64,000 bases of DNA from a virus. The notes beneath the pieces were generated by a model that worked only from the letters and a program-made list of their open reading frames with translations, ran no database searches and had not been told where the DNA came from. The stretch lies in the IMG/VR virus record IMGVR_UViG_3300045988_066341. One strand, given 5' to 3'. Made by a program: the position numbers and the translations under genes. Each line of letters opens with the position of its first letter. Position 1 is the first letter of the stretch. Of the stretch, positions 11,093-62,500 are shown piece by piece.

Positions 11093-11269
11093 TCAATGCA
11101 TATGATAAGCCGCTAAGGCTTTCTTAGCCGAATCCCTCGACTTGTACTTGGCCGGCCATAATTTACCGGTCTTGTTGCTAACCACTCGCCAATTACTCCC
11201 TACTTTCTTAATGCATCCTGACTTCGGGCATTCGCCCTTCTTCTTACCGCTAGCTTTTCCTGTTGCCAT
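11093..11269 (-). CDS. small basic protein, 58 aa
   Basis: Translated by hand and below the ORF-track cutoff: MATGKASGKKKGECPKSGCIKKVGSNWRVVSNKTGKLWPAKYKSRDSAKKALAAYHMH, ending in a TGA stop. It fills an otherwise empty 280-nt gap. Confidence 0.4.
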   Translation of the reverse strand: MATGKASGKKKGECPKSGCIKKVGSNWRVVSNKTGKLWPAKYKSRDSAKKALAAYHMH

Positions 11270-11281
11270 AACATCAAATAT

Positions 11282-12232
11282 TTAAATTACAATAGTACTT
11301 ACCTCATAAGTATCATAATTAATTTTTATCTTACTCATTTTTGAAGAATTCGGATCAAAAAATACCAAATAAGCGGCATCATAAATATAACTTGCTATGA
11401 TATATGAATTAAAAGCCGCCGTAAAACCGGAGCCAGATATCACTCGTGAAAGATACATATGATAATTATTTAGAATATAACTTTTTATATCATCATATTT
11501 TGATTTGGTTATAGATGATACTATATCAATAGTGCCAGGTTCTAATAGATAACTTGATATGTCTATACCTCTTATATCATGATATAACCCATTATCCATC
11601 AATGCTTTATTCCCAGTCCCTTTCAACTTAAGATGAAGCTGATTATCAAAATTTATATTATCTTCTGTATTCCCAAAAGACCTTACAATAACTATCTCAG
11701 TGTTATCTGATGATGCTATATTTAAAGAAGAATTAATATATTCAACATTCAAATTAGGGTAAACAGATATAGATATATCTGAAAATCCCATATTAAGGGA
11801 ATTATTTGAAGCGCTGATATAAATAGTGATACAATCATTCCTTTGATCATTAAAAACCATCAAATCATTAATATTCACGCCACCTAACGCTTCTACAAAA
11901 GAATTGTTAGGTCTTATCATCCTGACATTGGACGTAGAACTACCATCAAACAACGACTTTATAGTATTATATTGAGATTGAGGCAAAGTAGTAGATTGAT
12001 CTCCTACAAGCTGTAAGATGATAGCTAAAAAAGCATCCTCATCATCACTTTTAGCTACTGCGTCCTTTCACGTACCATCACCACAAAGGAACCTACCCTC
12101 ATCCCCCTTAGCAGGAGCCGGCACCAATCCCGCAGCGCCAGCCCCGGACGCCGTGGCGCCAACCATATCCTTGACCTTATCAAGTCTACTGTCTATTTGA
12201 TTACCATCGTACTTACCAATAAAATCCTCCAT
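11282..12232 (-). CDS. tail-fibre-like protein interrupted by one in-frame TGA (12068..12070) at a conserved Trp position
   Basis: ATG 12232 gives ...GAAGLVPAPAKGDEGRFLCGDGT, then TGA. The same frame then continues directly into ORF 11282..11986, whose listed start is only a TTG. Confidence 0.55.
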
Positions 12233-12267
12233 ATCGTTTTAATATACAAGGGAGAGGCGGCAAAATA

Positions 12268-12276
12268 CCCCCCCCC
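12268..12276. repeat. C9 (G9 on the coding strand) homopolymer tract
   Basis: Nine consecutive C in the 58-nt gap between the giant gene stop (12291) and ATG 12232. It abuts the -7-like element TATTTTG. Confidence 0.9.
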
Positions 12277-12290
12277 TATATGTTAATAAA

Positions 12291-15200
12291 TCAATAAACT
12301 TTCTCCTCATTGCTAAACCAACGAACTATCATCTTGAACCGACTCTCAATGTCATTCACGAACCTAGCCAAGAACCAATCGCCACGAAGACGATCACGCC
12401 ACCTCCGGTGATAATCGACGGCCCTAGGGTCGATCTTCCGGTCAATATCATTCACGTCCTTGATCCATACCGGGAGGTTATTAGTATCGTCTTTGACCTC
12501 GTTAAAATAGTCATTTATATTTATCTTCTGATCAACCTCCGTCACCAGTATCTCACGGCTATCGTCATTGGTTACAGGATACCTTAACCGCTGGCTCATA
12601 TCGTTCTTGTCGGCGATAACCATCCGAAGTTCACCGCTGTTGTTCGTATCATTATAAAACCATGCCTTATTGAATCCAGTAGTCCTAAGAATTTGGTAAT
12701 TAACCTCATCCTGATATCTTCTGGCATCCATCCGATATTGGTAGTTGGTGAGGATCTTATTCACGTACTGCTCACGTACCGGAACCTCTATAACAAACGG
12801 ATATAGCTTACCATAAAATACTTGATACGATTGGTTGGTCAATCCATGAGACCATAACCCTATCTCCTGACTTTCACTTGAGTAGTTCTTTCCAGACTGG
12901 AAATAATGCTGGTGCTCGATATAATAATCAGGGGTGTAGGATAAATATGATTTCCACTCACCCTTCAGGCAGTTATATCCAACGGTGAACGAGACGTCCG
13001 TGAAATGGCTGGCGTCCTGTAGCTCCACCGCCTGCCCGTTCCTGTAGAACCGGCCGCCACGGAATTGGTACTCGCTCGGATTCCCTACCGGTATATAATC
13101 TTTCTTGGTTATCAGAACCCTCTTAAACCTATTATCCCAACCCATGGACAACCCTATACCAAAAAACTTGTTATCAATATCATAATAAGACAACTCAGCG
13201 TCCGTATCAGCGTTATATATCCGGCTACGGATGATCTTCATCTGAAGATGCTCATTAAACCAGTTTCTAAGCCCCGGTGTGACCTCCGTAAGATTCCTAC
13301 CATTAGAATCTACCTTAAACACCTGACCACGCCTTAAATCGACCCAAAAATGCCCAAACTCGCAACTGATCATATCCCGGCTCTGGGTCCCGGAATATCC
13401 TAACGTCGTATTATTATACTCGATACCACGAGAGGCGAAAAGACCACCTGTCCCTAGCTCGCTACTCTCCGGGGATATTCTCTCCGCCAACACGTCTATG
13501 GCATTGTACAACCCTACCTGATTCTCAAAACGAGCCAGTATCTGATCCGACTCTATCCCTTTCATGCTTATAAGTTTCCCGAAAGATGTCTTGAACTCAT
13601 GGTAATCCATAGGCTTGTACGACAGCCAAGGATCGGTCATGCCGTTCTCCGACACGTCGGCGGTGCTCCATATGACGCCGTTGGGTCTTTGGTAAGCGCA
13701 GTCCCAAAAATTGCTATCATACGTCTCTGGTAATGACCTGCCACCTAACGTAAATCGATTCTTATACACAGGACTTATCTTAAACACATTATCCCTTGAT
13801 ATAGGGACATTACGCTCCTGAGTCCATGATATATAATCCCCCACCTCCGGATAGAACCCCTCGTAAGGCTCAGGTCCGGCTATACGGAAATTGCAATTGA
13901 TCTCAGACTCCACAAGAAACTGAGGTATGCCATAGAAGTATAGGAAGAAACGACCGCTAAGATACATATCTCCGGTCTTGCAAACCATCTCATAAGCGCT
14001 CTTCCGGCTAGGGAAAGAGTATAGCGATCCGGTATCCGTATCGGTCTTATTAAGATAATCCTCCCCGGTGTCGTAATTAACAAAATAACGGGGATACCCG
14101 ATGTTCCGATAATCATAATAAGGGAATGGTATCATGTCCCCCTGACCAAACTGAGTCAAGTAAAACATAGGCATCTTCCTCTTAAGTGAGAATCTTGATA
14201 TAAATACATCACCTCCAAAAACAGGTTTACGCTTATCCTTATCCATCAACCCGCAACCACCTAACGATACCCACCTGATATCCTCTATCTGTCCGTATTG
14301 AGCCGGAGAATATTTCTTTATCCTCATATAGGGGCAGGATACGAAAGATTCACGTGTCATAAAATGAGGCGTCATACCAGCCACCTCATCGTTACGAATA
14401 TTACACTCATCCTGAATACGGCTGGTATCGTAACTTGAAACCAACTCCGGATATTCAAGCATATATTTATCCATACCAAATGACATGAATAACGAGTGCT
14501 CACGATCGAGGTTGTTTATGATAATAGGCTTACCGCCTACGGTCTCCCCTTGCGAAGAGATATCTGTTACCGGATATAACCCGCTCTTGATATATTTAGC
14601 CGTTGACAATCCACGTAACTCTGACTCCCCTATTTTTTGGTAAAATAAATTATAATGAGCGACAGAAGTATAATAATAAGCATAGTTCCGTCTAGGTCCC
14701 CTATCTATCAATGCCGTTAACCACTGATACCTGTACTTGCCTATATCCACCACGGACTGGGCTGTGGCCTTGGCGATACCCGTAGCCAGACGGATAGCCG
14801 TCAGCGCTATGCCGACAGGGTTGGCTAAAAAGAACACGCCTCCACCGACATATTGCTGTGAAGCCGACTGATATGTATACTCAGCTATAGCGGATATTAA
14901 ATTAGCCATAGCCTCCACCGTAGCCAATGATGTTGCCATACTGTAAGCCTTACTCCCTAATATCGTCCATTTAGGGTGATCCTCCACTTCCCTGAATATA
15001 CCGGAGGATTTACCTAATTGATAACCATCAACAAGGCACTCGGTGGGAGCGTCAGGCTTGTTAAAGGCAATATCAGGGCTTAAGAATGAATACCAGATAT
15101 TACCCCTCCTGTTAAACGGATGCGTTATAAATTTCTCACGATTAATATCCTTATAGATATACATATCATCAGACAAATCGTTGTAAGGGTAATTAGGATA

Positions 15201-18200
15201 AAGGTTAGCCGATCCGTCGGGATCATCGTACTTAAACATATCATAAGCCAGACCAGTTCCGATAACGCTCTTATCCAACGTCCTATCGCCCCTATACAAC
15301 TCATATCCTATTATAGAATCTCTTCTAACCTTATCTATAAGACCGTTCTCTACCGCTATATCCAGAAACTCATTAACGATATCGTCATCAAGCATCACCC
15401 CCATAGGATAAATATAGGAGTCAACTCCATATTGACCGGTCAGTTGAGACGGATTACCCATAAAAGGAGCGACAGAGTTATCCGGGAACTTGTAATGACG
15501 TATAGGTCTCTGACAAAACGTGGTTGACGTATTTGGGTACTCAGCGTTACCCCCATTACCGGTGAAATAAGACTTACCCCCAACTGATTTAGGAGACCCA
15601 TAGTATTTCATCAAAGAATCTATTATGTCCTTCCTCTTTGATCCTCCCGATGATATCCCGATCTTACTTGAATCATACAACTCAAAATTAGCCGGATACT
15701 TATTGGTAGACTCCCAATATCCGAAATCACCGTACTGATATGGTCTGGGAGCGCAGTCAGCGGGTTTATCCCCACATGAGATACATTTCGCCTCATAGGT
15801 AACGAATCTCCTTAATTTCAATTCTTTTGTGAAGAAGAATACGTATTTCACCTCCAGTGGCCGAATGCCAAAACAGAACGGGGCAGGGAAGATGGCGGTG
15901 CCGGCCGTATAGAATCCGGCAAGCTCCTTCATGTCCTGCCTCATGGCGAAACCGGTGAAGAACACGCATACCGCAGGCTCGATGCAAACATATATCTTAT
16001 GGAAAGTAGTCTTGTCATCATTCCAGAACAAGTACTTTGGCATCATAAATATCTTATGATCCACGTAATTCACTATAACACCTTTCTTGGCATCATTAGC
16101 CAAAGGATTAGGAGCCACGGTACCTTCCTTGTCCGAGAAAAACGTTATACGAACCTTATTGTATGATGACGAGTCGCCGATCGGATAATTATAGTTACCC
16201 ATCATCTCTATATACATAATACCGTTATCAGGATCGGATAAACCACTTATGTATTTCTCGTAATCCAACTCCACCCATCTGGCGTATGAGGATACATGTG
16301 GATAGAACTTGAAATAAGTCAAGTTGCTTCTACCGAACCAATTGGTCTTGGCGTCAATATCATTCTGCATAGACACACGACCTTCCCAGTCAGTAGTTAT
16401 ACCGGTATTAAACTTAGAATTATCACCATCGCCAAAAAGACACATGGCGTTCTCGATACCAAACTGACTCTCATATTGGGGGAAATAAGCCTCCATCGTA
16501 TCCATTAACTGATCAAGCATCGTCTCCGTATGCTTCTTTCCTTCCCATCCGGGATATTGATACAAATATGTGCACTTACCCAATGACCTACCCCCTTGGA
16601 ATGTAGGAAGTTGAACATCGTTAATAGTAGGATTCACGTGAGGATCACCTACCGAACACCCATTAGTACATATACCCTCATCATATAACTGCCGGACATT
16701 AGACATATCCTGACACAAGACCAAGGCGGAGGAGTCTATATCAGACGGGAATTTATCCTCATCCTGACCATCCAACCATTCCTGAACCAGATCTATGATA
16801 TTCTTACCTCCACTGGAGTAATTATCGAAATCACACAATACAGAAAACTTCCTTTGAGACTCGGCGTTACTTTGTATTAATGTCGTAGGTTCGGTCTCCA
16901 CGTAATCACTAGCCAGCTTATACGTAAAATCAATCCTAGAATCTACCAAAGAGTTTTTATCCAATATAGTCCTGGTCTCTATTCTCTCGATATTATCACA
17001 TCCACTAGGGAAATCAGGAGCCTTTATACCATCTTGATCTTCCGGCAACGATATAGCCGCACATAACTCATCAGTAATGCCTACATTGGATTCTATAAGA
17101 TCACACAGATTCTCTATATTGTCAGCGATATAATCAATAACATCATCTACCGTAACATCTTCCCCCATCGTGTTGATAACGAATTGGGTCTCTCCTACCG
17201 TGGCATATTCCTGCTCTACATACCTGAGTTGCTTGACATCTAGCTGATTCTTGCATTCTCCTCCAAAATCATCAAATCCCCAAGACGGATCGTTTATAAT
17301 CTTTGCCGTATTCTTAAACTGCCAAAGATGACGGCGGCTGTTCCCGGCGCACTGCGGGTTGTTCTCCAGCACCGAAGCAGCCGACAGGTCGTCAGAGTTA
17401 CCGTCCTCATCAACGATAACCTCCATCTCCTCCCTTGTGGCCGGACGAGGGATAAGCGGGAATCTAGCCGTCCTGTATCCTGTATTGGTAAAGAATCTTA
17501 TACCCAACGGATATACCTCGTCACGCATGAAAGAGGCGTATTTAGAGCAAGCCACACCGTCTTTATACAAATTCTCCGTGGCTATAGATGTCTGCCATTT
17601 AACGAAATGACCCAAGAAGTTAACGACCGGTTGAAGATTCCATTCGTTCTCCACGGTCAAGCCGTATTGAAGAAGACGATTCCCGACAGACGTCATGCCT
17701 CTGGCTGTCTTATATACCGGTATTTCCTTGGATAACTTCTCCATGGTCGTACGCTCGCTATACTGATCCGTAAGGTAATAGATGGTCCTTTCCGTTATCG
17801 GATGTATACCTTCTATGAAATACTCAAGAACCGGGCTTTGCTCACCATTAAACCCAACCGTGTTCTGTATAACACCTATCTTATAATGAGATACCTGCTT
17901 GTCTATATTGGATACAGTAAGGCGGATACCCATATTGGTTGACTTACCCCATAAACCATCACGGATAACCATATCTTGGCGATCGAATAACATGATTGGG
18001 TTGGTCAATGAGCAATATCCGGTCTTCTCTATCCCGAACTCATCGCACAACGCCACGCAGAACTGGTAGGTCCCGGCACGCAAGCTCCCCCCGAACTCCA
18101 CGACCTCGGGCTCCACGCACGGGACCGTCAGCAACGGGAACACCAGCAGCTTCTCGCAGGCCAGCCTACACCTCTCTATTGGCTTGTCATCCCCACATGT

Positions 18201-18809
18201 CTTATACCCATGGTAATGATACCAAAAATCACCATCATCATCCGGATTAAGAGCCTTATCGACCATAACATATCGCTGGGGATTATATCCATCGGTCCAG
18301 TATATCACCTTCCCGCATTTCTCGTCCTTGATCTCTATATCGAAGATCGGATGATGAATGGAGAAATTAAGACAAGGGTCATCAACCCAGTCCTCTATCA
18401 GGATCTCCATCAAATCACATATCTCATCAAAACGACCATCCGACTCCTCAAGCCTCTCGCCAAGGATACGATGGATGTCCTTTCCCGATCCAGCCAATTG
18501 ATCCTCCACGGTCTTGATATAATCCAATGACCGCATGAACGTGATCTTAGACGTATTATCATCCGGATTGGATAGAAAGAAATAAGTGTTATCACCAGCT
18601 ATGTCATTCTTATACCCAATAACCTTATAGCCATCAAATCGCTTACATAAAAGGGTACTAGGCTCGTTCTGGATCTTAAGCTGGCTTCCATCGTCACCCT
18701 CTATGGTAGCGTTCAAGGCGAAACTATATTCAGACGGGGATAGATCCTGTGGATGCTTATCCCTGTTCATCCCGGAGTCGGGAACCGCTATGTTAGAGTT
18801 ATTTTGCAC
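12291..18809 (-). CDS. giant virion structural protein (about 2170 aa), function unresolved
   Basis: One uninterrupted ORF. I place the start at GTG 18809, 17 nt below a TATATTTG box, with ATG 18770 as the alternative. ATG 18854 in the track lies upstream of that promoter, in IS-flanking DNA. Confidence 0.7.
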   Translation of the reverse strand: MQNNSNIAVPDSGMNRDKHPQDLSPSEYSFALNATIEGDDGSQLKIQNEPSTLLCKRFDGYKVIGYKNDIAGDNTYFFLSNPDDNTSKITFMRSLDYIKTVEDQLAGSGKDIHRILGERLEESDGRFDEICDLMEILIEDWVDDPCLNFSIHHPIFDIEIKDEKCGKVIYWTDGYNPQRYVMVDKALNPDDDGDFWYHYHGYKTCGDDKPIERCRLACEKLLVFPLLTVPCVEPEVVEFGGSLRAGTYQFCVALCDEFGIEKTGYCSLTNPIMLFDRQDMVIRDGLWGKSTNMGIRLTVSNIDKQVSHYKIGVIQNTVGFNGEQSPVLEYFIEGIHPITERTIYYLTDQYSERTTMEKLSKEIPVYKTARGMTSVGNRLLQYGLTVENEWNLQPVVNFLGHFVKWQTSIATENLYKDGVACSKYASFMRDEVYPLGIRFFTNTGYRTARFPLIPRPATREEMEVIVDEDGNSDDLSAASVLENNPQCAGNSRRHLWQFKNTAKIINDPSWGFDDFGGECKNQLDVKQLRYVEQEYATVGETQFVINTMGEDVTVDDVIDYIADNIENLCDLIESNVGITDELCAAISLPEDQDGIKAPDFPSGCDNIERIETRTILDKNSLVDSRIDFTYKLASDYVETEPTTLIQSNAESQRKFSVLCDFDNYSSGGKNIIDLVQEWLDGQDEDKFPSDIDSSALVLCQDMSNVRQLYDEGICTNGCSVGDPHVNPTINDVQLPTFQGGRSLGKCTYLYQYPGWEGKKHTETMLDQLMDTMEAYFPQYESQFGIENAMCLFGDGDNSKFNTGITTDWEGRVSMQNDIDAKTNWFGRSNLTYFKFYPHVSSYARWVELDYEKYISGLSDPDNGIMYIEMMGNYNYPIGDSSSYNKVRITFFSDKEGTVAPNPLANDAKKGVIVNYVDHKIFMMPKYLFWNDDKTTFHKIYVCIEPAVCVFFTGFAMRQDMKELAGFYTAGTAIFPAPFCFGIRPLEVKYVFFFTKELKLRRFVTYEAKCISCGDKPADCAPRPYQYGDFGYWESTNKYPANFELYDSSKIGISSGGSKRKDIIDSLMKYYGSPKSVGGKSYFTGNGGNAEYPNTSTTFCQRPIRHYKFPDNSVAPFMGNPSQLTGQYGVDSYIYPMGVMLDDDIVNEFLDIAVENGLIDKVRRDSIIGYELYRGDRTLDKSVIGTGLAYDMFKYDDPDGSANLYPNYPYNDLSDDMYIYKDINREKFITHPFNRRGNIWYSFLSPDIAFNKPDAPTECLVDGYQLGKSSGIFREVEDHPKWTILGSKAYSMATSLATVEAMANLISAIAEYTYQSASQQYVGGGVFFLANPVGIALTAIRLATGIAKATAQSVVDIGKYRYQWLTALIDRGPRRNYAYYYTSVAHYNLFYQKIGESELRGLSTAKYIKSGLYPVTDISSQGETVGGKPIIINNLDREHSLFMSFGMDKYMLEYPELVSSYDTSRIQDECNIRNDEVAGMTPHFMTRESFVSCPYMRIKKYSPAQYGQIEDIRWVSLGGCGLMDKDKRKPVFGGDVFISRFSLKRKMPMFYLTQFGQGDMIPFPYYDYRNIGYPRYFVNYDTGEDYLNKTDTDTGSLYSFPSRKSAYEMVCKTGDMYLSGRFFLYFYGIPQFLVESEINCNFRIAGPEPYEGFYPEVGDYISWTQERNVPISRDNVFKISPVYKNRFTLGGRSLPETYDSNFWDCAYQRPNGVIWSTADVSENGMTDPWLSYKPMDYHEFKTSFGKLISMKGIESDQILARFENQVGLYNAIDVLAERISPESSELGTGGLFASRGIEYNNTTLGYSGTQSRDMISCEFGHFWVDLRRGQVFKVDSNGRNLTEVTPGLRNWFNEHLQMKIIRSRIYNADTDAELSYYDIDNKFFGIGLSMGWDNRFKRVLITKKDYIPVGNPSEYQFRGGRFYRNGQAVELQDASHFTDVSFTVGYNCLKGEWKSYLSYTPDYYIEHQHYFQSGKNYSSESQEIGLWSHGLTNQSYQVFYGKLYPFVIEVPVREQYVNKILTNYQYRMDARRYQDEVNYQILRTTGFNKAWFYNDTNNSGELRMVIADKNDMSQRLRYPVTNDDSREILVTEVDQKININDYFNEVKDDTNNLPVWIKDVNDIDRKIDPRAVDYHRRWRDRLRGDWFLARFVNDIESRFKMIVRWFSNEEKVY

Positions 18810-18825
18810 GACATTATCTTTTTCG

Positions 18826-18833
18826 CAAATATA
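18826..18833 (-). promoter_or_regulatory. -7 promoter box (TATATTTG) for the giant gene
   Basis: TAnnTTTG on the minus strand, 17 nt upstream of GTG 18809. Confidence 0.45.
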
Positions 18834-18839
18834 ACAAAT

Positions 18840-19050
18840 CCTGCGGATAATCACTTATGTGGCGGATTCTATTGACATACTCCCATCACTAAAGCAAATG
18901 GGATTCTTGGATACAGACGCAAGAAACCCCGATATTACTATCGCTGGAATTACTCTTGCTCTCCAATTCGGAAATGCCCTTCCGAAGTATATTACGGGCC
19001 GCAAGAACATCACGGTCGTTGATAGACTCGCATTTTGGACAACACCATGT
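18840..19050 (-). ncRNA. predicted omega-RNA (reRNA) region of the TnpB element; boundaries not resolved
   Basis: Position only. TnpB guide RNAs are encoded across the 3' end of tnpB and the right transposon end. I cannot define the scaffold by eye. Confidence 0.25.
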
Positions 19051-20028
19051 GCGATCTCTCAACGACAAGTTTTTATTAACAAACCCGCATTCACAAGTCT
19101 TTGAGGAAGGATACCATTTGTCAATCTTATGTACTATCACTCCATACTTTGAAGCGATATACGTAAGTTTGTTAATAAAAGAAGAATGACTGAGATCAGA
19201 AACTTTCTTTCCCCACAAACGTTTCATTCCTTCAATGTTTAGATCTTCAATGAAAATATAATCATATCGCTTGCACAATTCATGAGCTAATTTCCATTGA
19301 AAATCAGATCGAAAATCGTTTATTTTACGATACGCTTGTTGAAGTTCAAACAGTCTTCTTTTTCTATTATTGGATCCTTTCTTCGCATTAGAAAACTTTC
19401 TATTTAGTTTTCTAATCTTGTTTTGATATTGCTTGAAGAATAATGGAGACCCAATTTTGTTACCATCACTTTTAGTTAGGTAAGTTTTCAGACCAAAATC
19501 CAATCCTACAGATGCACCATCATATGTCTTTCTGTAAGAGTTTGCAGGATTGTAATCTGTAACTATAATCAAACTAAAACGATAGCAGGTTTCTCTGACT
19601 ATTCTTATTTGTTTAACATTACCTTCATATGCTCTACTGTATGAAAACTTAAAACGTTTCTTTCCTTTGTTGATTGTGAGAATATTACCATTTAGAGTAA
19701 ACCCTCCTTGTTTAAAAACAAAAGAGTTGAAACAATCTGATCTTTTAAACTTAGGTGGTCTCTTTGATTTTCTTTTAAAGAAACGATTATAAGATTCATC
19801 AAGACGTTCAAGTATTTCTTGTGTTGTTTGAGAATGAAGAAGATTTCTTTTAATTCTTTTAGCAAAATGCTTCTTCATTTTACCAATTGAGATATATTTC
19901 CCAAACAGTTTATAGTATCTACGTTGTAGAGCTAAAGCATGATTCCATACAAAACAACATTCACGAAGCATTTTATCAAGATACTTCGTTTTCTTGGATC
20001 TGTATATATTATATTTGTAGGAAATCAT
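18889..20028 (-). CDS. tnpB: TnpB RNA-guided endonuclease (IS200/IS605 accessory protein, OrfB)
   Basis: RuvC triad contexts are SVGLDFGLK, YIFIEDLNIEG and NDRDVLAARNI. The zinc finger is CECG...CCPKC. N-terminus and length (379 aa) are typical. Confidence 0.9.
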   Translation of the reverse strand: MISYKYNIYRSKKTKYLDKMLRECCFVWNHALALQRRYYKLFGKYISIGKMKKHFAKRIKRNLLHSQTTQEILERLDESYNRFFKRKSKRPPKFKRSDCFNSFVFKQGGFTLNGNILTINKGKKRFKFSYSRAYEGNVKQIRIVRETCYRFSLIIVTDYNPANSYRKTYDGASVGLDFGLKTYLTKSDGNKIGSPLFFKQYQNKIRKLNRKFSNAKKGSNNRKRRLFELQQAYRKINDFRSDFQWKLAHELCKRYDYIFIEDLNIEGMKRLWGKKVSDLSHSSFINKLTYIASKYGVIVHKIDKWYPSSKTCECGFVNKNLSLRDRTWCCPKCESINDRDVLAARNILRKGISELESKSNSSDSNIGVSCVCIQESHLL

Positions 20029-37552: not shown

Positions 37553-37625
37553 GGTCGGTTGGATGAGTTGGTTTAGTCGGTGGTCTGCAAAACCATACAC
37601 CTCGGTTCGAATCCGGGACTGACCT
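37553..37625 (+). tRNA. tRNA-Cys (anticodon GCA), 73 nt, no encoded CCA
   Basis: Folded by hand. Acceptor stem GGTCGGT/ACTGACC has one G.U. The D-loop carries A14 and G18-G19. The anticodon stem GTGGT/ACCAT closes loop CTGCAAA. There is a 4-nt variable loop and T-arm CTCGG-TTCGAAT-CCGGG. Discriminator U73 fits Cys identity. Confidence 0.8.
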
Positions 37626-37657
37626 CGCATTTGCAATCCTTTCTGGGGTGATAACCC

Positions 37658-39228: not shown

Positions 39229-39912
39229 TCAATTTTTAAAGTAATGCAAAATAATAATACCACGATAACCTGATCCTCCTCGACCGCTCGTAGCTCCACT
39301 ATTAGACGCTTTAGAGGCTCCTCCTCCACCACCTCCATAATAAGTGGCATCATCTCCATTTTTGCCATTAATAGTAACACCCTTAATATCCTCGACCCCA
39401 GCTCCATCACCTCCTCCGTGATTTCCGCCTTTCCCTCCGGATAAAAAGCCCATATTCCATCCTCTTGTATAAGCTCCCGATCCACCACCAGCTCCCATAG
39501 GGTAAGGATAACGATCAGGATACTTATTATTAAAAACATATGATCCATCTTGCCCTGGATTTCCCGGGGAAGGATCATGACCATCCCCTTCAACTCCATA
39601 TCCGCCTCTTCCACCTTTACCGGCAATAGCCTGATATATACCGAATATACTATCACCACCTATATCTCCTACAACCACCCTATATGTAACACCTGGATTT
39701 ACGGGTATAGTCCCAGTTAGTACACCACCTCCGTTACCACCACTCCCGGCATTATATATATCGGAATATCCTCCATTAAGACCTCCGGCGACCAACGCGA
39801 ACTCAACCTCATAGACCCCATCAGGAACCGCCCAATATCCATTATCCTGAGGAGATAATTCCTCGAATACCTCTATTACCTTCCTTTTGGGTAACATCCT
39901 TCTTCTCATCAT
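39229..39912 (-). CDS. glycine-rich tail-associated protein, 227 aa
   Basis: Gly-rich blocks (SGGNGGG, GKGGRGGYG, GAGGGSGA, GGGGGGAS) end in GYRGIIILHY, like the glycine-rich domains of phage tail proteins. Confidence 0.5.
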   Translation of the reverse strand: MMRRRMLPKRKVIEVFEELSPQDNGYWAVPDGVYEVEFALVAGGLNGGYSDIYNAGSGGNGGGVLTGTIPVNPGVTYRVVVGDIGGDSIFGIYQAIAGKGGRGGYGVEGDGHDPSPGNPGQDGSYVFNNKYPDRYPYPMGAGGGSGAYTRGWNMGFLSGGKGGNHGGGDGAGVEDIKGVTINGKNGDDATYYGGGGGGASKASNSGATSGRGGSGYRGIIILHYFKN

Positions 39913-39930: not shown

Positions 39931-39939
39931 CCCCCCCCC
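39931..39939. repeat. C9 (G9 on the coding strand) homopolymer tract
   Basis: Nine consecutive C in the 59-nt gap, 19 nt upstream of ATG 39912. Confidence 0.9.
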
Positions 39940-53751: not shown

Positions 53752-55455
53752 TTAGCCGAAGTAGTTCGGTTGAAGCTCGATGATCAAGAACTTGCTGTTA
53801 TCCATAACCCAAGCCGCGGAAGCTGAGTGACACCAGAATTGCTCTTTCATGCCCGGCAAGGATGATACGATCTCATTTCCGTTGGCTTTGTGCGCCCAAC
53901 GACCGTACTCATAACCCCACCACATGCTTACGCCTTCTGGCTTGATATAAAATACGTTGTTATTCATATTACCTAACTTAGCGTTAGCCGTATTAGGAAT
54001 AGCGGAATATGCGTTAGTCGATCCAGCGTCAGTGATATTCTCAATAATACAAGAATAAGAGGATCTAGGATACATGCCATTCACTAACTCGCTACGATCT
54101 GTCATGTCAGCGTAATCCAAAGAAGGATCGTGCTCGAACTCTACATTTCCGATGCCGGGAAGAAAAGCGCCCTTAACCTGTACCGGACCTAAGATCATAG
54201 CATCATTAGTACCAGAGATAGGATTAGAAGGCAACATACGGTCACTACCCATACCCCAGCTCAAATTACTCAACGTAGTAAAGAAAGCCTCTCTAATCAA
54301 CTTCTCTAAGTTGACCATAGCCATAGCTCCTACCTTGAACTTAATCTTACGCTCCGTAATAGGAAGATCTTGACGACCACGGAAAATATAAGCGGCAGCA
54401 GCCATAAGAGTATCCTTAGTAATACCCATCGGGCGACTATAGTAGATAGTATAACCACGGCGAAGCTGACGGTAGATACCCTCATTCAAATGGATAGGAC
54501 CATTTTGATCCATAATAATACCACCTTCTTGCCACATCAACTGTCTAGCTTCCAGCTTAACCAACTCAGCCATACAGAATACCTCCAGCGTGGACGCTAC
54601 CTTAGCCGTACGTAAATCAAGCCTACCATTAACCGTCCTGCCGATAATAGCCAAATCAGGAATATTGCCCTCATACTCGCTTCTCATAGCATTCATACGA
54701 CGAAGGGCGGTCTCCACGAACTCTGAAGTGCTATTCTGGGCGGCCTGCATGGACTTCATACCAGCATACATAGTGGTCTCACCCTCAACGCCACGGTGGT
54801 TTCCTAAACGGAATTCACAAGTCATAGAACCGGCCTTGTCAGCTCCAGATACCTTAGAGAACTGGGTACTATACTCACCAAGAGCATGACCGATCTTCCA
54901 GTAACGGATACCCGGACGTAATTTCTCTTTAGGGAAGTATTTAGCCTTTCCGCCGATAACACGACCCCAATAACGTGTCAAATCACCTTCTGTCTTAGAC
55001 GGTATCTCACCTGAGATAAGGATATTACAGCCGTTAGCGGCGTCATAGGTGATGACATCATAAGCCGTAAACTCAGATGTATTCAAAACGATATCAAACA
55101 AACTTCCATCAATACCCGGTTTCAGATGATGAGTCGAAGTATCCTCCGCCGTAACTACAGCGAATGTCTTTGTAACGGGAAGATCATAACGGAAAGAAGC
55201 TCCAATACCGTTAACGGAGATCGTAGCGCCGTTATTAATCATACCCATATACATCGGAACGGGGTAATTAGCGATATTAGAGAACAGATTCAACAGACCC
55301 AAATGATTCTTGTCCGGATCCTCATAATACCAGCTCGCCAATGAGCCTAAGTTATGCTCTACGAGCGAAGTCTTATAGTTCTTGGCATCGGTGAAGGCAA
55401 TAACGTTATCGCCATTCACGGTAGCCGGAAAACTTTTTGTCAAAAAAGGGTTCAT
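53752..55455 (-). CDS. major capsid protein candidate, 567 aa
   Basis: The classical order TerL, portal, scaffold-like, then this gene, followed by a strong terminator. I recognise no explicit HK97-fold motif by eye. Confidence 0.45.
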   Translation of the reverse strand: MNPFLTKSFPATVNGDNVIAFTDAKNYKTSLVEHNLGSLASWYYEDPDKNHLGLLNLFSNIANYPVPMYMGMINNGATISVNGIGASFRYDLPVTKTFAVVTAEDTSTHHLKPGIDGSLFDIVLNTSEFTAYDVITYDAANGCNILISGEIPSKTEGDLTRYWGRVIGGKAKYFPKEKLRPGIRYWKIGHALGEYSTQFSKVSGADKAGSMTCEFRLGNHRGVEGETTMYAGMKSMQAAQNSTSEFVETALRRMNAMRSEYEGNIPDLAIIGRTVNGRLDLRTAKVASTLEVFCMAELVKLEARQLMWQEGGIIMDQNGPIHLNEGIYRQLRRGYTIYYSRPMGITKDTLMAAAAYIFRGRQDLPITERKIKFKVGAMAMVNLEKLIREAFFTTLSNLSWGMGSDRMLPSNPISGTNDAMILGPVQVKGAFLPGIGNVEFEHDPSLDYADMTDRSELVNGMYPRSSYSCIIENITDAGSTNAYSAIPNTANAKLGNMNNNVFYIKPEGVSMWWGYEYGRWAHKANGNEIVSSLPGMKEQFWCHSASAAWVMDNSKFLIIELQPNYFG

Positions 55456-59579: not shown

Positions 59580-62500
59580 TTACCTAAAAGCTCCTATAGA
59601 TACCGATCCAAAGGCAGAGGCATATACCTCATGGTGTTTATAAGCGTCTTCCTTGCGGGCATTATTCATCTCCTCGATCTTCGATTTAGGCATGTAATTG
59701 TTATCGTCAAAATATCTGGAGAGAACCAACGCATGCCCGAACGCTATTATCCTATCGACGTTCAATCCGGGCTTGTACTGTATTATCTCATCCAGTAGGG
59801 CTATATCATCAATCAACTCAATACCCTTGACAGTTATATCAAGACCAGTCTGATCATCATAACCAATAACGAAATCCTGCCAGCAATAATCCACGACGCA
59901 CGAGAATAGCAGGTTCTGGTTGCCGGGGGTAGGGTATAGCCCCAGCTTGCTGTTCTGCCGGGAGCCGGCCTTCACATACTTATTGGCTATTGCCTCACCA
60001 GCAAACAGAAAGAAAGACGCTGGCATACCACTTTTACGGTTAAGATACTGCTCATACATCTGGTCAGCGTTCTCCATAAGACATATAGCACCATATCCTT
60101 TCTGAAGCACCTCGCACGTACGGCAAAACTGATCTATGGATGATGGGCGGGATACGTATGAAGCCACTATTCTATAGGCATAAGGATCTCGAATACCAAC
60201 ACGTCTCTTGAATACATAAAAAGCACCTAATGAAGGGGTATCAGACTTGGCCTGTTTATAAGGGTCGCAATTGTGAACAGATATATTCCTTAATAAATAA
60301 TTATTCGTATCACATTCAAAATTATACACAGGACCGGTATACTTTTCTTTAGTTATAGATGATATCCTGACATATATATACTTATTATCATTACTAATAA
60401 ATATACCTGTGGAAGGACTTTTTCTTGTGCTGGTATCCATACATACTTTAGACAATTTAGATATATAATCAGGAGTTAATGTCTCAACCAACTTCATGAA
60501 ATACACAGTATAGTTATGGCCTATCCTTAAATGATAACATGATCTTTGAGATTTAACCTTATTGCCATCTATATATTCAGCCCTATTTTTTTTCATTATG
60601 GATATACCTCCAACTACTCCAAGAGATAACAATATATCCTGTATACCCTCAAGAAGATCCATACTGACACTTACGAAATCCATGCCCGAATAATTGCGAA
60701 AATCATTATGGATAGATCCATCCGTATCCAGATATCCATGAATTAAACTAACCTTCATGCTAAACGGGAGGTATTTAGCAAATTCAGGAATATATTTACC
60801 ATAACAATATTTACCAAAATTATTAACAAGCCACTCGCTTAGATAAACATGCTTAAAATTTAATTCCCAATTACCCTTCCTGCATCTCTCCGAAGGCTTA
60901 ATACCAAAAAGATTATCTATAACCTTGTAATACCTATCCCTCTCTTCTGGATAGTCAAAACAAATAGCCATCTGTACACGACACTGCTTATCAATCCATC
61001 CATTCCCTAGCCACATCCCGACAAACCACCAAAAATCATCAGAAAGCATATAATCCCTAAATCCCGGAATATCCATCCTTTCTTCGGCATACATATTTGG
61101 GATCCTTGTCCACTGTCCCTCTTTTATATCCTTGACAGGTATGTAATCAAACTTGAATAAATCTTCCCTAACCCTTCTCCCTACGGTCTTATGATCAGAA
61201 ACAAAAATAGGATGATCAGAAGTAAATCTATTTATTCTTACGCCATTATACATCTTTATCGAATAAAGATCCTCTTCGACCATATTTCTGACAAGTCTCT
61301 TGCGTATCCTAACATTATCCCCTTCATTATTAACCAAGAAATCATCATAGTCAACATCCTCTACATTCTTATATCCATCAGGGGTCAACACCCTTTCTCC
61401 GGGAGGCATACATCCTGCGACATAAATAAAATCATCAAACCTATTAGATTGAGGCATCTCAAATATCTGGACAGGAGCGTCAATAACACCGCCGCTAAAC
61501 GGGAAACCAGCCAATTGCTTATTCGATTTAGTAGTACCAAGCTTATTTCCCGATTCAAGAAAAACATCACACAACATGCCGCTATATTGCCCTGACTCAA
61601 GAAGATCATTCTTATGCTTGATAGCGTACTCGACCGGAAATAGGTTCTGGGATGAGCTTAAAAAACAGTCGTCAATCGTAAATGGATAGAACATGGTATG
61701 AGAGGTATAAGCTACCCTATCTTTCGTAGATAGCTTCTTCCGTTCCTCGTTAAGCTTATTGGTACTGGCTTCAAAATCCGTGGCATCAATCTTAATCTTA
61801 TTAAGCTTCTTGTCATCAGGCTTACCAAGATAATCGCCCAATCCTATAGTTCTCTTAACACCGGAGTTAGCCATCTGACCGGGAACGAACATCGCCCATT
61901 TCCGTTCTTTCCATGTTTTCCCTTTCATGGCTCTACGATTTAAAATATCCCAGTCCATAACCAGAAGATTGTAGGTCTCAGGATCAGAAAACATTTCTTG
62001 AGCGTCCTTGGATAATTCTACCTCACCACCAGTACCAGCCAAGATAGGGCTAAGACGCCAGCCGTAAGGAGTGTCGTAGGAAGGCATAGCGGCAGTGTAC
62101 GGCTTCTTGATAGGTCCCTTACCAACCTCGTCGAAAATAGCCGTAGCCGGTGTCAAACCAGCCGTCTTCTGAGTGGAGGTCTTCCTACCCATGTTGATGT
62201 TGGCTATAGAGATAATGGCATGGATATCACGTACGCCATTGGACATCCTCTTGCCTAATGTAACGCCCGAACTCCAGTCGGTCTTGGTCCTGTTGATCCT
62301 GAAAAAAGGATGCACATGATCAAGACCATACTCACAATACTCACCTATATTAGATAAATCGCTATCGCTGAAACCTACCACGGAATGGCTAAGCCCGATC
62401 GTCATGGTAGCGTTCATCTGGAGAAGTGATGACATGATGGTCGTATTATGGGATACGACAAAATTGGTAGTAAGAAACTGATGAGATTTATTATCTACCT

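What the first reader, a model, noticed from the sequence alone, without database searches (positions are those of the whole stretch)
11282..12232. Fibre-like gene interrupted by a single in-frame TGA where a conserved Trp is expected
Translation from ATG 12232 gives MEDFIGKYDGNQIDSRLDKVKDMVGATASGAGAAGLVPAPAKGDEGRFLCGDGT, then TGA (12070..12068). The same frame continues without a break (KDAVAKSDDEDAFLAIILQLVGDQSTTLPQSQYNTIKS...) into ORF 11282..11986, whose listed start is only a TTG. From memory, many phage tail-fibre N-termini carry the motif G-L-V-P-x-P ... F-L-x-G-D-G-T-W. The stop sits exactly on that Trp, and TGG to TGA is a single transition. There are three readings. It could be a nonsense mutation or a sequencing error. 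It could be programmed UGA read-through that gives a short and a long product. Or it could be local UGA=Trp decoding, as in the stop-codon-recoded gut phages. TGA clearly terminates other genes here (for example 39229..39912 and 11093..11269). I see no other in-frame TGA in more than 55 kb of ORFs, so genome-wide recoding is unlikely.
Basis: partly seen in the sequence, partly recalled or inferred. Interest (0 to 1): 0.65.

Follow-up and report, generated by a model that had tools for sequence, protein, structure and literature searches.

The report
Nonsense allele of accessory fibre gene
The in-frame TGA is a real G-to-A nonsense mutation on a near-invariant tryptophan of a dispensable fibre-like gene in a very common human-gut phage, a gene that wild relatives often break or lack, so this is ordinary gene inactivation and not a special decoding trick.

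Summary
On the minus strand, ATG 12232 opens a 316-codon frame broken only by TGA at 12070..12068.

Close relatives carry TGG there. All 78 copies found by an allele-neutral pattern scan have TGG. The tryptophan ends a roughly 36-residue repeat (..GLVPAP..FLRGDGTW) and is kept in 556 of 564 copies across diverse proteins.

The TGA is not a sequencing error. The exact 54-residue product is called on at least 23 contigs from independent samples, in at least three gene backgrounds. One further contig has TAG at the same codon.

It is one of many ways this gene is broken:
- Slips in G4, G5 and T6 runs.
- 2-, 7- and 145-nt deletions.
- Products that stop at codon 74.

Of 63 complete copies, 18 are truncated. 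The neighbouring structural gene is intact in 119 of 120 loci. pN/pS is 0.68 for this gene against 0.04 for the neighbour. At least 117 IMG/VR relatives lack the whole 1-kb cassette.

One TGA lineage also carries a downstream frameshift, and both flanking genes end in TGA. Programmed read-through and recoding are therefore not supported.

Side finding: two poly-G tracts upstream of surface-protein genes vary in length among relatives.

The parts
11282..12232 (-). Full 316-codon frame of the fibre-like gene, interrupted at codon 55. The TAA stop is at 11284..11282.
   Evidence: 316-aa orthologues at 98-99% identity.
12068..12070 (-). In-frame TGA replacing Trp55. TGG in relatives; the G-to-A change is at 12068.
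   Evidence: DNA alignment A1. 57/57 and 21/21 TGG in pattern scans. TGA or TAG alleles on at least 23 contigs.
12059..12172 (-). One copy (residues 21-58) of a widespread ~36-residue repeat, ..GAT..AG..GLVPAP..G....FL.GDGTW... It is Gly/Ala/Pro-rich, which contributes to the ~53% GC of this stretch.
   Evidence: phrog_4302 hit at E=3e-7 and 2.5e-8. Profile search: 5881 representative proteins, up to 14 copies each. W in 556/564 copies. GC profile.
11285..12067 (-). The 261 untranslated codons downstream of the stop. AT-rich body (27-33% GC) of two helix-plus-beta modules separated by a second, degenerate linker motif (KALMDNGLYHD).
12027..12032 (-). T6 run (gene nt 201-206), the commonest site of frameshift alleles in relatives (T5, T7, T8). 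It is T6 in this window.
   Evidence: The 68-aa T5 product is seen on 210 contigs.
12103..12107 (-). G5 run hit by +G frameshifts in relatives (44-aa products). Intact in this window.
12142..12145 (-). G4 run hit by a +G frameshift in relatives (41-aa product). Intact in this window.
12268..12276 (-). G9 tract in the 58-nt intergenic leader, 35 nt upstream of the ATG. Its length ranges from G6 to G14 among relatives.
11287..12290 (-). The accessory cassette (leader plus gene, 1004 nt). Cassette-less relatives have 14 nt (GGTGATTATATACC) in its place. The gene's TAA lies in the shared flank.
   Evidence: L001 comparison. The empty-site junction is found exactly in 117 IMG/VR contigs.
12291..18854 (-). 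Upstream neighbour: 2187-aa virion structural protein, ending in TGA. Used as the constraint control.
   Evidence: phrog_37948. Intact in 119/120 loci. pN/pS 0.04.
11093..11269 (-). Downstream neighbour: 58-aa basic protein, ending in TGA. It directly follows the big gene where the cassette is absent.

Best explanation
The TGA is a genuine, naturally circulating nonsense allele (TGG to TGA, Trp55) of an accessory fibre-like gene. The gene sits in the tail and structural module of a roughly 150-kb uncultured human-gut phage.

Translation stops after 54 residues, at the last residue of the protein's single ~36-residue GLVPAP..FL.GDGTW repeat. The two AT-rich distal modules are therefore not made, apart from whatever trace near-cognate tRNA-Trp misreading of UGA allows. 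The phage stays viable because the gene is dispensable.

The gene is a 1-kb cassette that most relatives lack. It evolves under weak constraint and is repeatedly knocked out in the wild by nonsense mutations, homopolymer slips and deletions.

Shown here:
- The substitution itself.
- Its presence in many independent samples and in several gene backgrounds.
- The spectrum and frequency of other knock-outs.
- The cassette's presence/absence polymorphism.
- Relaxed constraint on the gene.
- Normal use of TGA as a terminator in this genome.

Inferred:
- That the protein is a virion fibre.
- That the mutant particle lacks it.
- That loss is neutral or locally advantageous.
For: - Eight close relatives have TGG where the window has TGA, in an otherwise almost identical 340 nt.
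- Allele-neutral scans with GGTGATGGTACGTRRAAGGACGC give 57/57 TGG in IMG/VR and 21/21 TGG in metagenome contigs.
- W55 is nearly invariant in the family and in 556/564 repeat copies elsewhere.
- The exact 54-aa product is called on at least 23 contigs (29 index blocks) from different samples. One of them is a 154,495-nt scaffold identical to the window over 1130 nt and its flanks.
- In each TGA background, the nearest TGG allele differs within the gene only by that base: window vs L056/L024, L017 vs L073, L012 vs L083. L011 has TAG at the same codon.
- Other knock-outs: +G in the G4 and G5 runs; a 2-nt deletion; T5, T7 and T8 at the T6 run; T7 at a second T6 run; 7-nt and 145-nt deletions; 73-aa products consistent with a stop at codon 74; and a 56-aa fusion to the downstream gene.
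- 18 of 63 complete copies are truncated. The last 2400 nt of the neighbouring gene show a problem in 1 of 120 loci.
- pN/pS is 0.68 for this gene and 0.04 for the neighbour.
- The cassette is absent from L001 and from 117 IMG/VR contigs.
- L017/L018 carry TGA plus a T5 frameshift.
- TGA ends 8 of 36 long ORFs, and no other gene is split by TGA.
Against: - No reads, transcripts or proteomics were available, so the loss of the protein is inferred.
- The UGA-A context is, from memory of E. coli work, relatively leaky. Misreading by tRNA-Trp would restore the wild-type protein exactly, so the allele may be a knock-down and not a null.
- All TGA alleles examined keep the downstream 234-codon ORF open, which a very young pseudogene or a still-used coding region would both show.
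- About 70 kb of the ~154-kb genome was not scanned for a suppressor tRNA.
- W55-stop alleles were found by searching for their exact product. Their recurrence is solid, but their share among all knock-outs is not measured without bias.
Confidence: 0.85

Rival explanations
1. The locus is a contingency (phase-variable) locus. A hypervariable poly-G tract in the leader, slippage-prone runs in the 5' coding region and easy nonsense hits keep the phage population mixed for presence or absence of this accessory fibre. Selection by host receptor variation or by a defence system that senses the protein would repeatedly favour OFF variants. The TGA is one OFF, or leaky low-dose, state. This extends the best explanation rather than excluding it.
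For: - The G9 tract 35 nt upstream of the ATG ranges from G6 to G14 among otherwise near-identical relatives.
- A second G9 tract lies upstream of another surface-type (glycine-rich) gene and ranges from G7 to G19. These are the only G/C runs of 7 or more in 64 kb.
- The same T6 run is hit as T5, T7 and T8 on several haplotypes. The T5 product is on 210 contigs and occurs with at least 5 N-terminal haplotypes.
- 29% of copies are OFF, while intact copies persist.
- Precedent: Campylobacter phages use hypermutable poly-G tracts in receptor-binding genes (Sorensen et al. 2021, Cell Rep 35:109214, listed in the references of PMC10877375).
Against: - G4, G5 and T6 runs are short for classical hypermutable tracts.
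- Double-hit alleles (TGA+T5; +G and T5) and large deletions are not reversible.
- Poly-G length shows no evident relation to ORF state.
- Poly-G lengths in Illumina assemblies are error-prone.
- pN/pS of 0.68 fits plain relaxed constraint.
- No promoter could be assigned.
Confidence: 0.2
2. Programmed UGA read-through gives a short 54-residue product and a minor full-length product, as in the Qbeta coat/A1 system.
For: - The downstream frame is open for 261 codons.
- The stop is UGA followed by A.
- The amino acid that near-cognate tRNA-Trp would insert is the wild-type residue.
- TGA was seen in at least 3 backgrounds and TAG in only one.
Against: - The stop is not conserved: 78 of 78 allele-neutral relatives have TGG.
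- TAG, frameshift and deletion alleles occur at or near the same place.
- L017/L018 combine TGA with a downstream frameshift.
- There is no unusual RNA structure downstream (z = 0.27).
Confidence: 0.04
3. The N-terminal repeat is deliberately uncoupled. The 5' disruptions remove the anchor, while the distal modules are still made from an internal start (TTG codon 83, or ATG codon 105).
For: - Most disruptions lie upstream of codon 83.
- The 234-codon downstream ORF is intact in all TGA alleles examined.
Against: - Disruptions also occur at codons 171, 190, 217, 232 and 292.
- The 5' clustering follows the G4, G5 and T6 runs located there.
- The first in-frame ATG is 50 codons downstream, and no start signal was identified.
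Confidence: 0.05
4. The phage reads TGA as Trp, through code-4-like recoding of late genes with a suppressor tRNA, as in some large crAss-like gut phages.
For: - Opal recoding with tRNA-Sup(TCA) is documented in large gut phages. One example is phage Lera, with 41 ORFs carrying in-frame TGA (PMC12386605).
- The capsid gene of relatives has a faint Crass_capsid hit.
- About 70 kb of the genome was not scanned.
Against: - No other gene in 64 kb of packaging and structural genes is split by TGA. Terminase, portal and capsid are all intact.
- TGA ends 8 of 36 long ORFs, including both neighbours.
- The only tRNA found is tRNA-Cys(GCA). None was found in about 10 kb beyond each end in relatives.
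- Relatives use TGG at this site.
Confidence: 0.02
5. The TGA is a sequencing or assembly error.
For: It is a single-base difference from close relatives.
Against: - The identical truncated product is called on at least 23 contigs from different studies and assemblers.
- These include three samples sharing one divergent TGA haplotype (L012, L013, L016).
- They also include a scaffold identical to the window.
Confidence: 0.02

Closest known systems
The frameshifted side-tail-fibre gene stf of laboratory lambda (lambda PaPa; Hendrix and Duda 1992, recalled from memory)
   Same: An accessory fibre gene in the tail module is inactivated by a point lesion. The phage stays viable and intact alleles exist in relatives. 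The consequence would be a change in adsorption, not lethality.
   Different: Here the lesion is a nonsense codon. It circulates in natural gut populations. It is one of dozens of independent knock-outs of a cassette that most relatives lack altogether. The protein family is unrelated and uncharacterised.
Qbeta coat/A1 UGA read-through by tRNA-Trp (recalled from memory)
   Same: A UGA codon with an open downstream frame. tRNA-Trp would be the likely misreader.
   Different: In Qbeta the stop is conserved and the read-through product is essential. Here the stop is a rare allele of a Trp codon, is not conserved, and co-occurs with a downstream frameshift in one lineage.
Stop-codon recoding in gut phages (Borges et al., bioRxiv 10.1101/2021.08.26.457843; opal-recoded Zeta crAss-like phage Lera, PMC12386605)
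   Same: A human-gut phage of more than 100 kb, with a TGA where homologues have Trp, in a late or structural gene.
   Different: Recoded phages have tens of genes with in-frame stops and usually a suppressor tRNA. This genome has a single case, uses TGA as a normal terminator, and shows no suppressor tRNA in the part examined.
Hypermutable poly-G tracts in Campylobacter phage receptor-binding genes (Sorensen et al. 2021, Cell Rep 35:109214, cited in PMC10877375)
   Same: Length-variable poly-G tracts associated with genes for virion surface proteins. Populations are mixed for an intact or broken receptor-binding gene.
   Different: There the tracts lie inside the ORFs and switching was shown experimentally. 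Here the long tracts are intergenic, the coding runs are short, and reversibility is untested.
PHROG 4302 (function unknown): proteins carrying the ~36-residue GLVPAP..FLRGDGTW repeat
   Same: Residues 21-58 match the family's repeat, and the interrupted codon is its conserved Trp.
   Different: Typical members carry 4 to 14 tandem copies in proteins of 500-2500 residues. This protein has one good copy plus a degenerate one that acts as an inter-module linker.

Membership tests
Loss-of-function allele (nascent pseudogene) of an accessory phage gene | Orthologues carry a sense codon where this copy has a stop | tested here: met
   TGG in 8 of 8 close relatives and in 78 of 78 pattern-scan hits. 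W in 316-aa orthologues.
Loss-of-function allele (nascent pseudogene) of an accessory phage gene | The gene is dispensable: viable relatives lack it or carry other disruptions | tested here: met
   The empty site occurs in L001 and in 117 IMG/VR contigs. 18 of 63 complete copies are truncated by many different lesions.
Loss-of-function allele (nascent pseudogene) of an accessory phage gene | Weak purifying selection compared with neighbouring genes | tested here: met
   pN/pS 0.68 vs 0.04. The neighbour is intact in 119 of 120 loci.
Loss-of-function allele (nascent pseudogene) of an accessory phage gene | The full-length protein is absent from particles of the mutant | not testable with these tools
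   Needs proteomics of a TGA-bearing phage.
Programmed stop-codon read-through (Qbeta A1 type) | The stop codon is conserved at that position among relatives | tested here: not met
   0 of 78 allele-neutral relatives have a stop there.
Programmed stop-codon read-through (Qbeta A1 type) | The downstream frame is kept intact wherever the stop is present | tested here: not met
   L017/L018 have TGA plus a T6-to-T5 frameshift 36 nt downstream. The other TGA alleles keep the frame.
Programmed stop-codon read-through (Qbeta A1 type) | Both a short and an extended product are detected | not testable with these tools
   Needs a reporter assay or proteomics.
TGA-to-Trp recoded phage (code 4-like) | Many conserved genes contain in-frame TGA | tested here: not met
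   The only real same-frame split by TGA in 64 kb is this one.
TGA-to-Trp recoded phage (code 4-like) | TGA is avoided as a terminator of late genes | tested here: not met
   TGA ends 8 of 36 long ORFs, including both neighbours of this gene.
TGA-to-Trp recoded phage (code 4-like) | A phage-encoded suppressor tRNA with anticodon UCA | tested here: inconclusive
   Only tRNA-Cys(GCA) in the window. None in about 10 kb beyond each end in relatives. About 70 kb of the genome was not examined.
Simple-sequence contingency (phase-variable) locus | A repeat tract in the promoter, leader or ORF that varies in length among close relatives | tested here: met
   The leader tract ranges from G6 to G14. The T6 run is seen as T5, T7 and T8. 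Caveat: assembly error at poly-G.
Simple-sequence contingency (phase-variable) locus | Reversible ON/OFF switching within a clonal population | not testable with these tools
   Needs clonal lysates or deep read data.
Simple-sequence contingency (phase-variable) locus | Tract length correlates with expression state | tested here: inconclusive
   No relation between poly-G length and ORF integrity. Expression was not measurable.
GLVPAP..FLRGDGTW repeat proteins (PHROG 4302) | A significant match to the repeat, including its terminal Trp | tested here: met
   E=3e-7 and 2.5e-8 on residues 21-58. Repeat copies in 136 of 146 top representative proteins, W in 556 of 564. In the window itself the Trp codon is the TGA.
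Phage tail fibre (annotated families) | A match to an annotated tail-fibre family or to a solved fibre structure | tested here: not met
   No Pfam, NCBIfam or PDB hit. The AF2 model was too poor to search (pLDDT 52.9). Only some other repeat-bearing proteins also hit tail-fibre PHROGs or Phage_head_fibr. 'Fibre-like' therefore rests on gene context.

The most novel reading that the evidence does not exclude
A highly prevalent gut phage may keep an accessory fibre cassette as a contingency locus. A conserved packaging-module protein of this phage is indexed in 9158 blocks of the public collection. A hypervariable poly-G tract in the leader, with a twin upstream of a glycine-rich surface-protein gene, together with slippage-prone coding runs and recurrent nonsense hits, would generate standing ON/OFF, or leaky low-dose, heterogeneity. 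The UGA-A allele would be a knock-down that tRNA-Trp misreading partly restores to the exact wild-type protein.
Probability: 0.15. Interest if true: 0.6.

Novelty: new member of a known kind. Interest (0 to 1): 0.3.

Why it matters
For annotation, this gene should be called a disrupted (pseudo) gene. It should not be recorded as two genes, as a read-through gene, or as evidence of an alternative genetic code.

For phage biology, the single stop is ordinary. The population picture behind it is more useful:
- The host-interaction cassette is present in only about a third of relatives.
- It is broken in about 29% of carriers, by dozens of independent lesions.
- It evolves almost neutrally.

This marks the cassette as a candidate for conditionally useful or conditionally harmful host-recognition equipment. 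The two length-variable poly-G tracts give a concrete, testable lead for phase-variable expression in an uncultured gut phage.

The work also shows that a very widespread ~36-residue repeat (5881 representative proteins) has no functional annotation.

Tried and rejected
- **Structure.** The AlphaFold2 model from a 30-sequence alignment was poor (mean pLDDT 52.9). No fold search was run, because a low-confidence model gives meaningless matches.
- **Sequence searches for function.** The family profile against PDB gave only a chance-level hit (E=0.042). Pfam and NCBIfam gave nothing above threshold.
- **Annotated phages.** tblastn of the N-terminal 68 residues against annotated phage genomes gave no match even at E<=10. 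This is probably low-complexity masking, so the 'tail-fibre' annotation of the motif could not be checked that way.
- **Literature.** A full-text search for 'GDGTW' found nothing relevant.
- **Promoters and terminators.** The sigma-70 promoter scan was at the shuffle expectation and no terminator-like site was found.
- **RNA structure.** The region downstream of the stop is unremarkable (z = 0.27).
- **Cassette boundaries.** No convincing terminal repeats at the cassette ends. There is only an 18-nt 16/18 direct repeat lying inside the gene's two ends, of marginal significance by my estimate.
- **Other nonsense products.** The cluster listing then showed that such products exist.
- **Selenocysteine.** Not pursued, because orthologues have Trp.
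- **Diversity-generating retroelement.** Not pursued, because the change is G-to-A at one codon and the other lesions are indels.
- **GC break at the stop as a recombination scar.** Considered and set aside. The Gly/Ala/Pro-rich repeat can account for much of the high GC of the first 165 nt.

Full report
**Observation.** On the minus strand, an ATG at 12232 opens a frame of 54 sense codons (MEDFIGKYDGNQ...GRFLCGDGT). This is followed by TGA at 12070..12068, then 261 further open codons to TAA at 11284..11282. The catalogued downstream ORF (11282..11986) begins only at a TTG. Across the 64-kb window this is the only genuine case on the coding strand of two long same-frame segments separated by a single TGA. 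TGA ends 8 of 36 long minus-strand ORFs. Both immediate neighbours end in TGA: the 2187-aa structural gene at 12293..12291 and the 58-aa gene at 11095..11093.

**What relatives have at this codon.** A protein search with the stop replaced by Trp returned more than 1800 homologues. The best are 316 residues long, 98-99% identical, and have W at position 55. To exclude gene callers that might have used code 4, I aligned the DNA of eight close relatives. All have TGG where the window has TGA, in an otherwise almost invariant 340 nt. I then scanned with a 23-mer that allows any of TGG, TGA, TAG or TAA at the codon. It found 57 IMG/VR contigs and 21 metagenome contigs, all with TGG. The stop is therefore one G-to-A transition at 12068 on a codon that is Trp in the great majority of copies.

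**The motif.** A profile of the family was searched against 1.84 billion representative proteins. It matched 5881 of them at E<=0.001. In nearly all non-orthologous hits, only profile positions of about 21-58 match, and they match up to 14 times per protein. Inspection shows a tandem repeat of roughly 36 residues..TGAT..AG..GLVPAP..G....FLRGDGTW... Among 146 diverse proteins, 136 carry it. The last residue is Trp in 556 of 564 copies. However, it is an internal repeat or linker and not specifically an N-terminal signature. In this family a degenerate second copy (KALMDNGLYHD) separates the two distal modules, and 475-478-residue variants insert a further module after the first copy. The only library family that covers the repeat is PHROG 4302, of unknown function. 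Some repeat-bearing proteins also hit tail-fibre PHROGs, Phage_head_fibr or BppL_N.

**Is it a fibre?** For the window's protein itself, Pfam, NCBIfam and PDB give nothing. An AlphaFold2 model was too poor to use (mean pLDDT 52.9). 'Fibre-like' therefore rests on gene context. The gene lies between a 2187-aa virion structural protein and a tail-lysozyme-domain protein, in a block that also holds portal, terminase and other structural genes.

**Not an error, and not unique.** The exact 54-residue product is called on at least 23 contigs (29 index blocks) from independent studies and assemblers. One is a 154,495-nt scaffold identical to the window across the locus and its flanks. Aligning these loci showed the following:
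- TGA occurs in the window's haplotype, in a second close haplotype (L010/L015), in L017/L018, and in a 90%-identical background with a different C-terminus (L012/L013/L016).
- TAG occurs at the same codon in L011.

In each TGA background, the nearest TGG allele differs within the gene only by that base, while flanks differ by tens of substitutions. The nonsense change therefore arose several times, or was moved by very short recombination tracts. These alleles were found by searching for their own product. Their existence and recurrence are secure, but nothing can be said about a special preference for this codon. Indeed, 73-residue products consistent with a stop at codon 74 also exist, on three haplotypes.

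**A gene that is broken again and again.** The catalogue of other lesions in relatives is:
- +G in a G4 run (41 aa).
- +G in a G5 run (44 aa).
- A 2-nt deletion (45 aa).
- A T6 run changed to T5, T7 or T8 (68, 88 and 69 aa).
- T7 at a second T6 run (292 aa).
- A 7-nt deletion and a 145-nt deletion.
- A rearranged 3' half.
- A 56-residue product that fuses codon 44 to the end of the downstream gene.

The 68-residue T5 product alone is recorded on 210 contigs and occurs with at least five N-terminal haplotypes. Some alleles carry two lesions: L017/L018 have TGA plus T5, and L022 has +G plus T5. In the allele-neutral samples, 18 of 63 complete copies are truncated. The last 2400 nt of the neighbouring structural gene show a problem in only 1 of 120 loci. 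Among intact alleles, pN/pS is 0.68 (0.80 for the distal part), against 0.04 for the neighbour.

**An accessory cassette.** In MT837925.1 the 2187-aa gene is followed directly by the 58-aa gene. There, 14 nt stand where the window has 1004 nt (11287..12290). That exact empty-site junction occurs in 117 IMG/VR contigs, against 57 with the cassette's W55 23-mer. The phage itself is extremely common: a conserved 106-aa protein from the packaging module is indexed in 9158 blocks of the collection. The body of the cassette is 27-33% GC against 42.6% for the window. The first 165 nt are about 53% GC. Their Gly/Ala/Pro-rich repeat can explain much of that, so I do not treat the composition break at the stop as a recombination scar.

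**Decoding alternatives.** Genuine opal recoding in large gut phages looks very different. Phage Lera has 41 ORFs with in-frame TGA, including terminase and structural genes, plus a tRNA-Sup(TCA) (PMC12386605). Here terminase, portal, capsid and all other long genes are uninterrupted. TGA is a common terminator. ARAGORN and Rfam find only a tRNA-Cys(GCA). Relatives show no tRNA in about 10 kb beyond either end of the window. About 70 kb of the genome remains unscanned. Programmed read-through is contradicted on three counts: the stop is not conserved, equivalent TAG, frameshift and deletion alleles exist, and the L017/L018 lineage has a frameshift 36 nt downstream that read-through could not rescue. 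The RNA downstream of the stop has no unusual structure (z = 0.27). From memory of E. coli work, UGA followed by A is comparatively leaky and is misread by tRNA-Trp. Any misreading would regenerate the wild-type protein, so the allele could be a knock-down rather than a strict null. This is an inference and was not tested.

**Conclusion on mechanism.** The most likely account (confidence about 0.85) is a genuine nonsense allele of a dispensable, weakly constrained accessory gene. Translation ends at the last residue of the repeat, the distal modules are not made, and the phage remains viable and transmissible. The same TGA haplotype is present in three different samples. Whether the many knock-outs are neutral decay or are favoured is not resolved. 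They might be favoured by host receptor changes or by a defence system that senses the protein.

**Side observation.** The leader of this gene contains a G9 tract (12268..12276) whose length ranges from G6 to G14 among near-identical relatives. The only other G/C run of 7 or more in the window is a second G9 tract (39931..39939). It lies 18 nt upstream of a 227-aa glycine-rich protein gene and ranges from G7 to G19. Combined with the repeatedly slipped T6 run, this suggests a contingency-locus reading, for which Campylobacter phages provide a precedent (Sorensen et al. 2021, cited in PMC10877375). Points against it are that the coding runs are short, several lesions are irreversible, poly-G length shows no relation to ORF state, and poly-G lengths in short-read assemblies are unreliable. 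I give this extension about 0.2.

**Verdict.** The finding is real and well explained. As a single event it is ordinary: a nonsense mutation in an accessory gene. It is neither recoding nor programmed read-through. It is a new instance of a known kind of event, in an unannotated protein family. The population pattern and the poly-G tracts are the parts worth following up.

Noticed in passing
window 12268..12276 (minus strand): G9 tract in the 58-nt leader, 35 nt upstream of the fibre-like gene's ATG. Its length ranges from G6 to G14 among relatives that are otherwise nearly identical here. It may be a phase-variable promoter or leader tract, or partly assembly noise.
   Followed up: yes
window 39931..39939 (minus strand), upstream of ORF 39229..39912: A second G9 tract, 18 nt upstream of the ATG of a 227-aa glycine-rich protein. 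Among 66 IMG/VR relatives it ranges from G7 to G19 and is sometimes interrupted by A or T. These two are the only G/C runs of 7 or more in the 64 kb.
   Followed up: partly
window 12059..12172, and proteins P0124-P0269: The ~36-residue repeat ..GLVPAP..FLRGDGTW.. occurs in 5881 representative proteins, up to 14 copies each. It is covered only by PHROG 4302 (unknown function). No Pfam, NCBIfam or PDB entry matched it.
   Followed up: partly
window 11287..12290 vs L001 4091..4106: The whole gene plus leader is a 1004-nt cassette that replaces 14 nt of an empty site. The empty site is found exactly in 117 IMG/VR contigs. The cassette's ORF borrows its TAA stop from the shared flank.
   Followed up: yes
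P0275 (56 aa; cluster of N-terminal fragments): A natural deletion allele fuses codon 44 of the fibre-like gene to the last 12 codons of the downstream 58-aa gene (..PAKGD-SAKKALAAYHMH). This removes most of the cassette and most of the small gene.
   Followed up: no
window 11286..11303 and 12200..12217: An 18-nt direct repeat (16 of 18 identical) lies just inside the two ends of the gene. By my rough estimate it is of marginal significance. The empty site does not contain it.
   Followed up: no
window 18889..20028 (minus strand): A 379-aa ORF matches transposase family phrog_506 (E=4e-89). It sits immediately upstream of the 2187-aa structural gene, inside the structural block.
   Followed up: no
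window 59580..63512 (minus strand): The large terminase ORF is 1310 aa, with its terminase matches split between the two ends. The middle hits ribonucleotide-reductase-like and helicase-loader-like families, and relatives have a 929-aa version. This suggests an intein or other insertion.
   Followed up: no
window 37553..37626 (plus strand): The only tRNA is tRNA-Cys(GCA), on the strand opposite to the long gene-sized ORFs. Cys-tRNA is near-cognate to UGA at the third position, but nothing suggests a role here.
   Followed up: partly
window 53752..55455 (567-aa ORF) and loci L363-L365: The 567-aa protein downstream of the portal has a faint precomputed Crass_capsid (PF23898) hit in relatives. 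The phage may be distantly related to Crassvirales, although one public record of a fragment labels it Herelleviridae sp..
   Followed up: no
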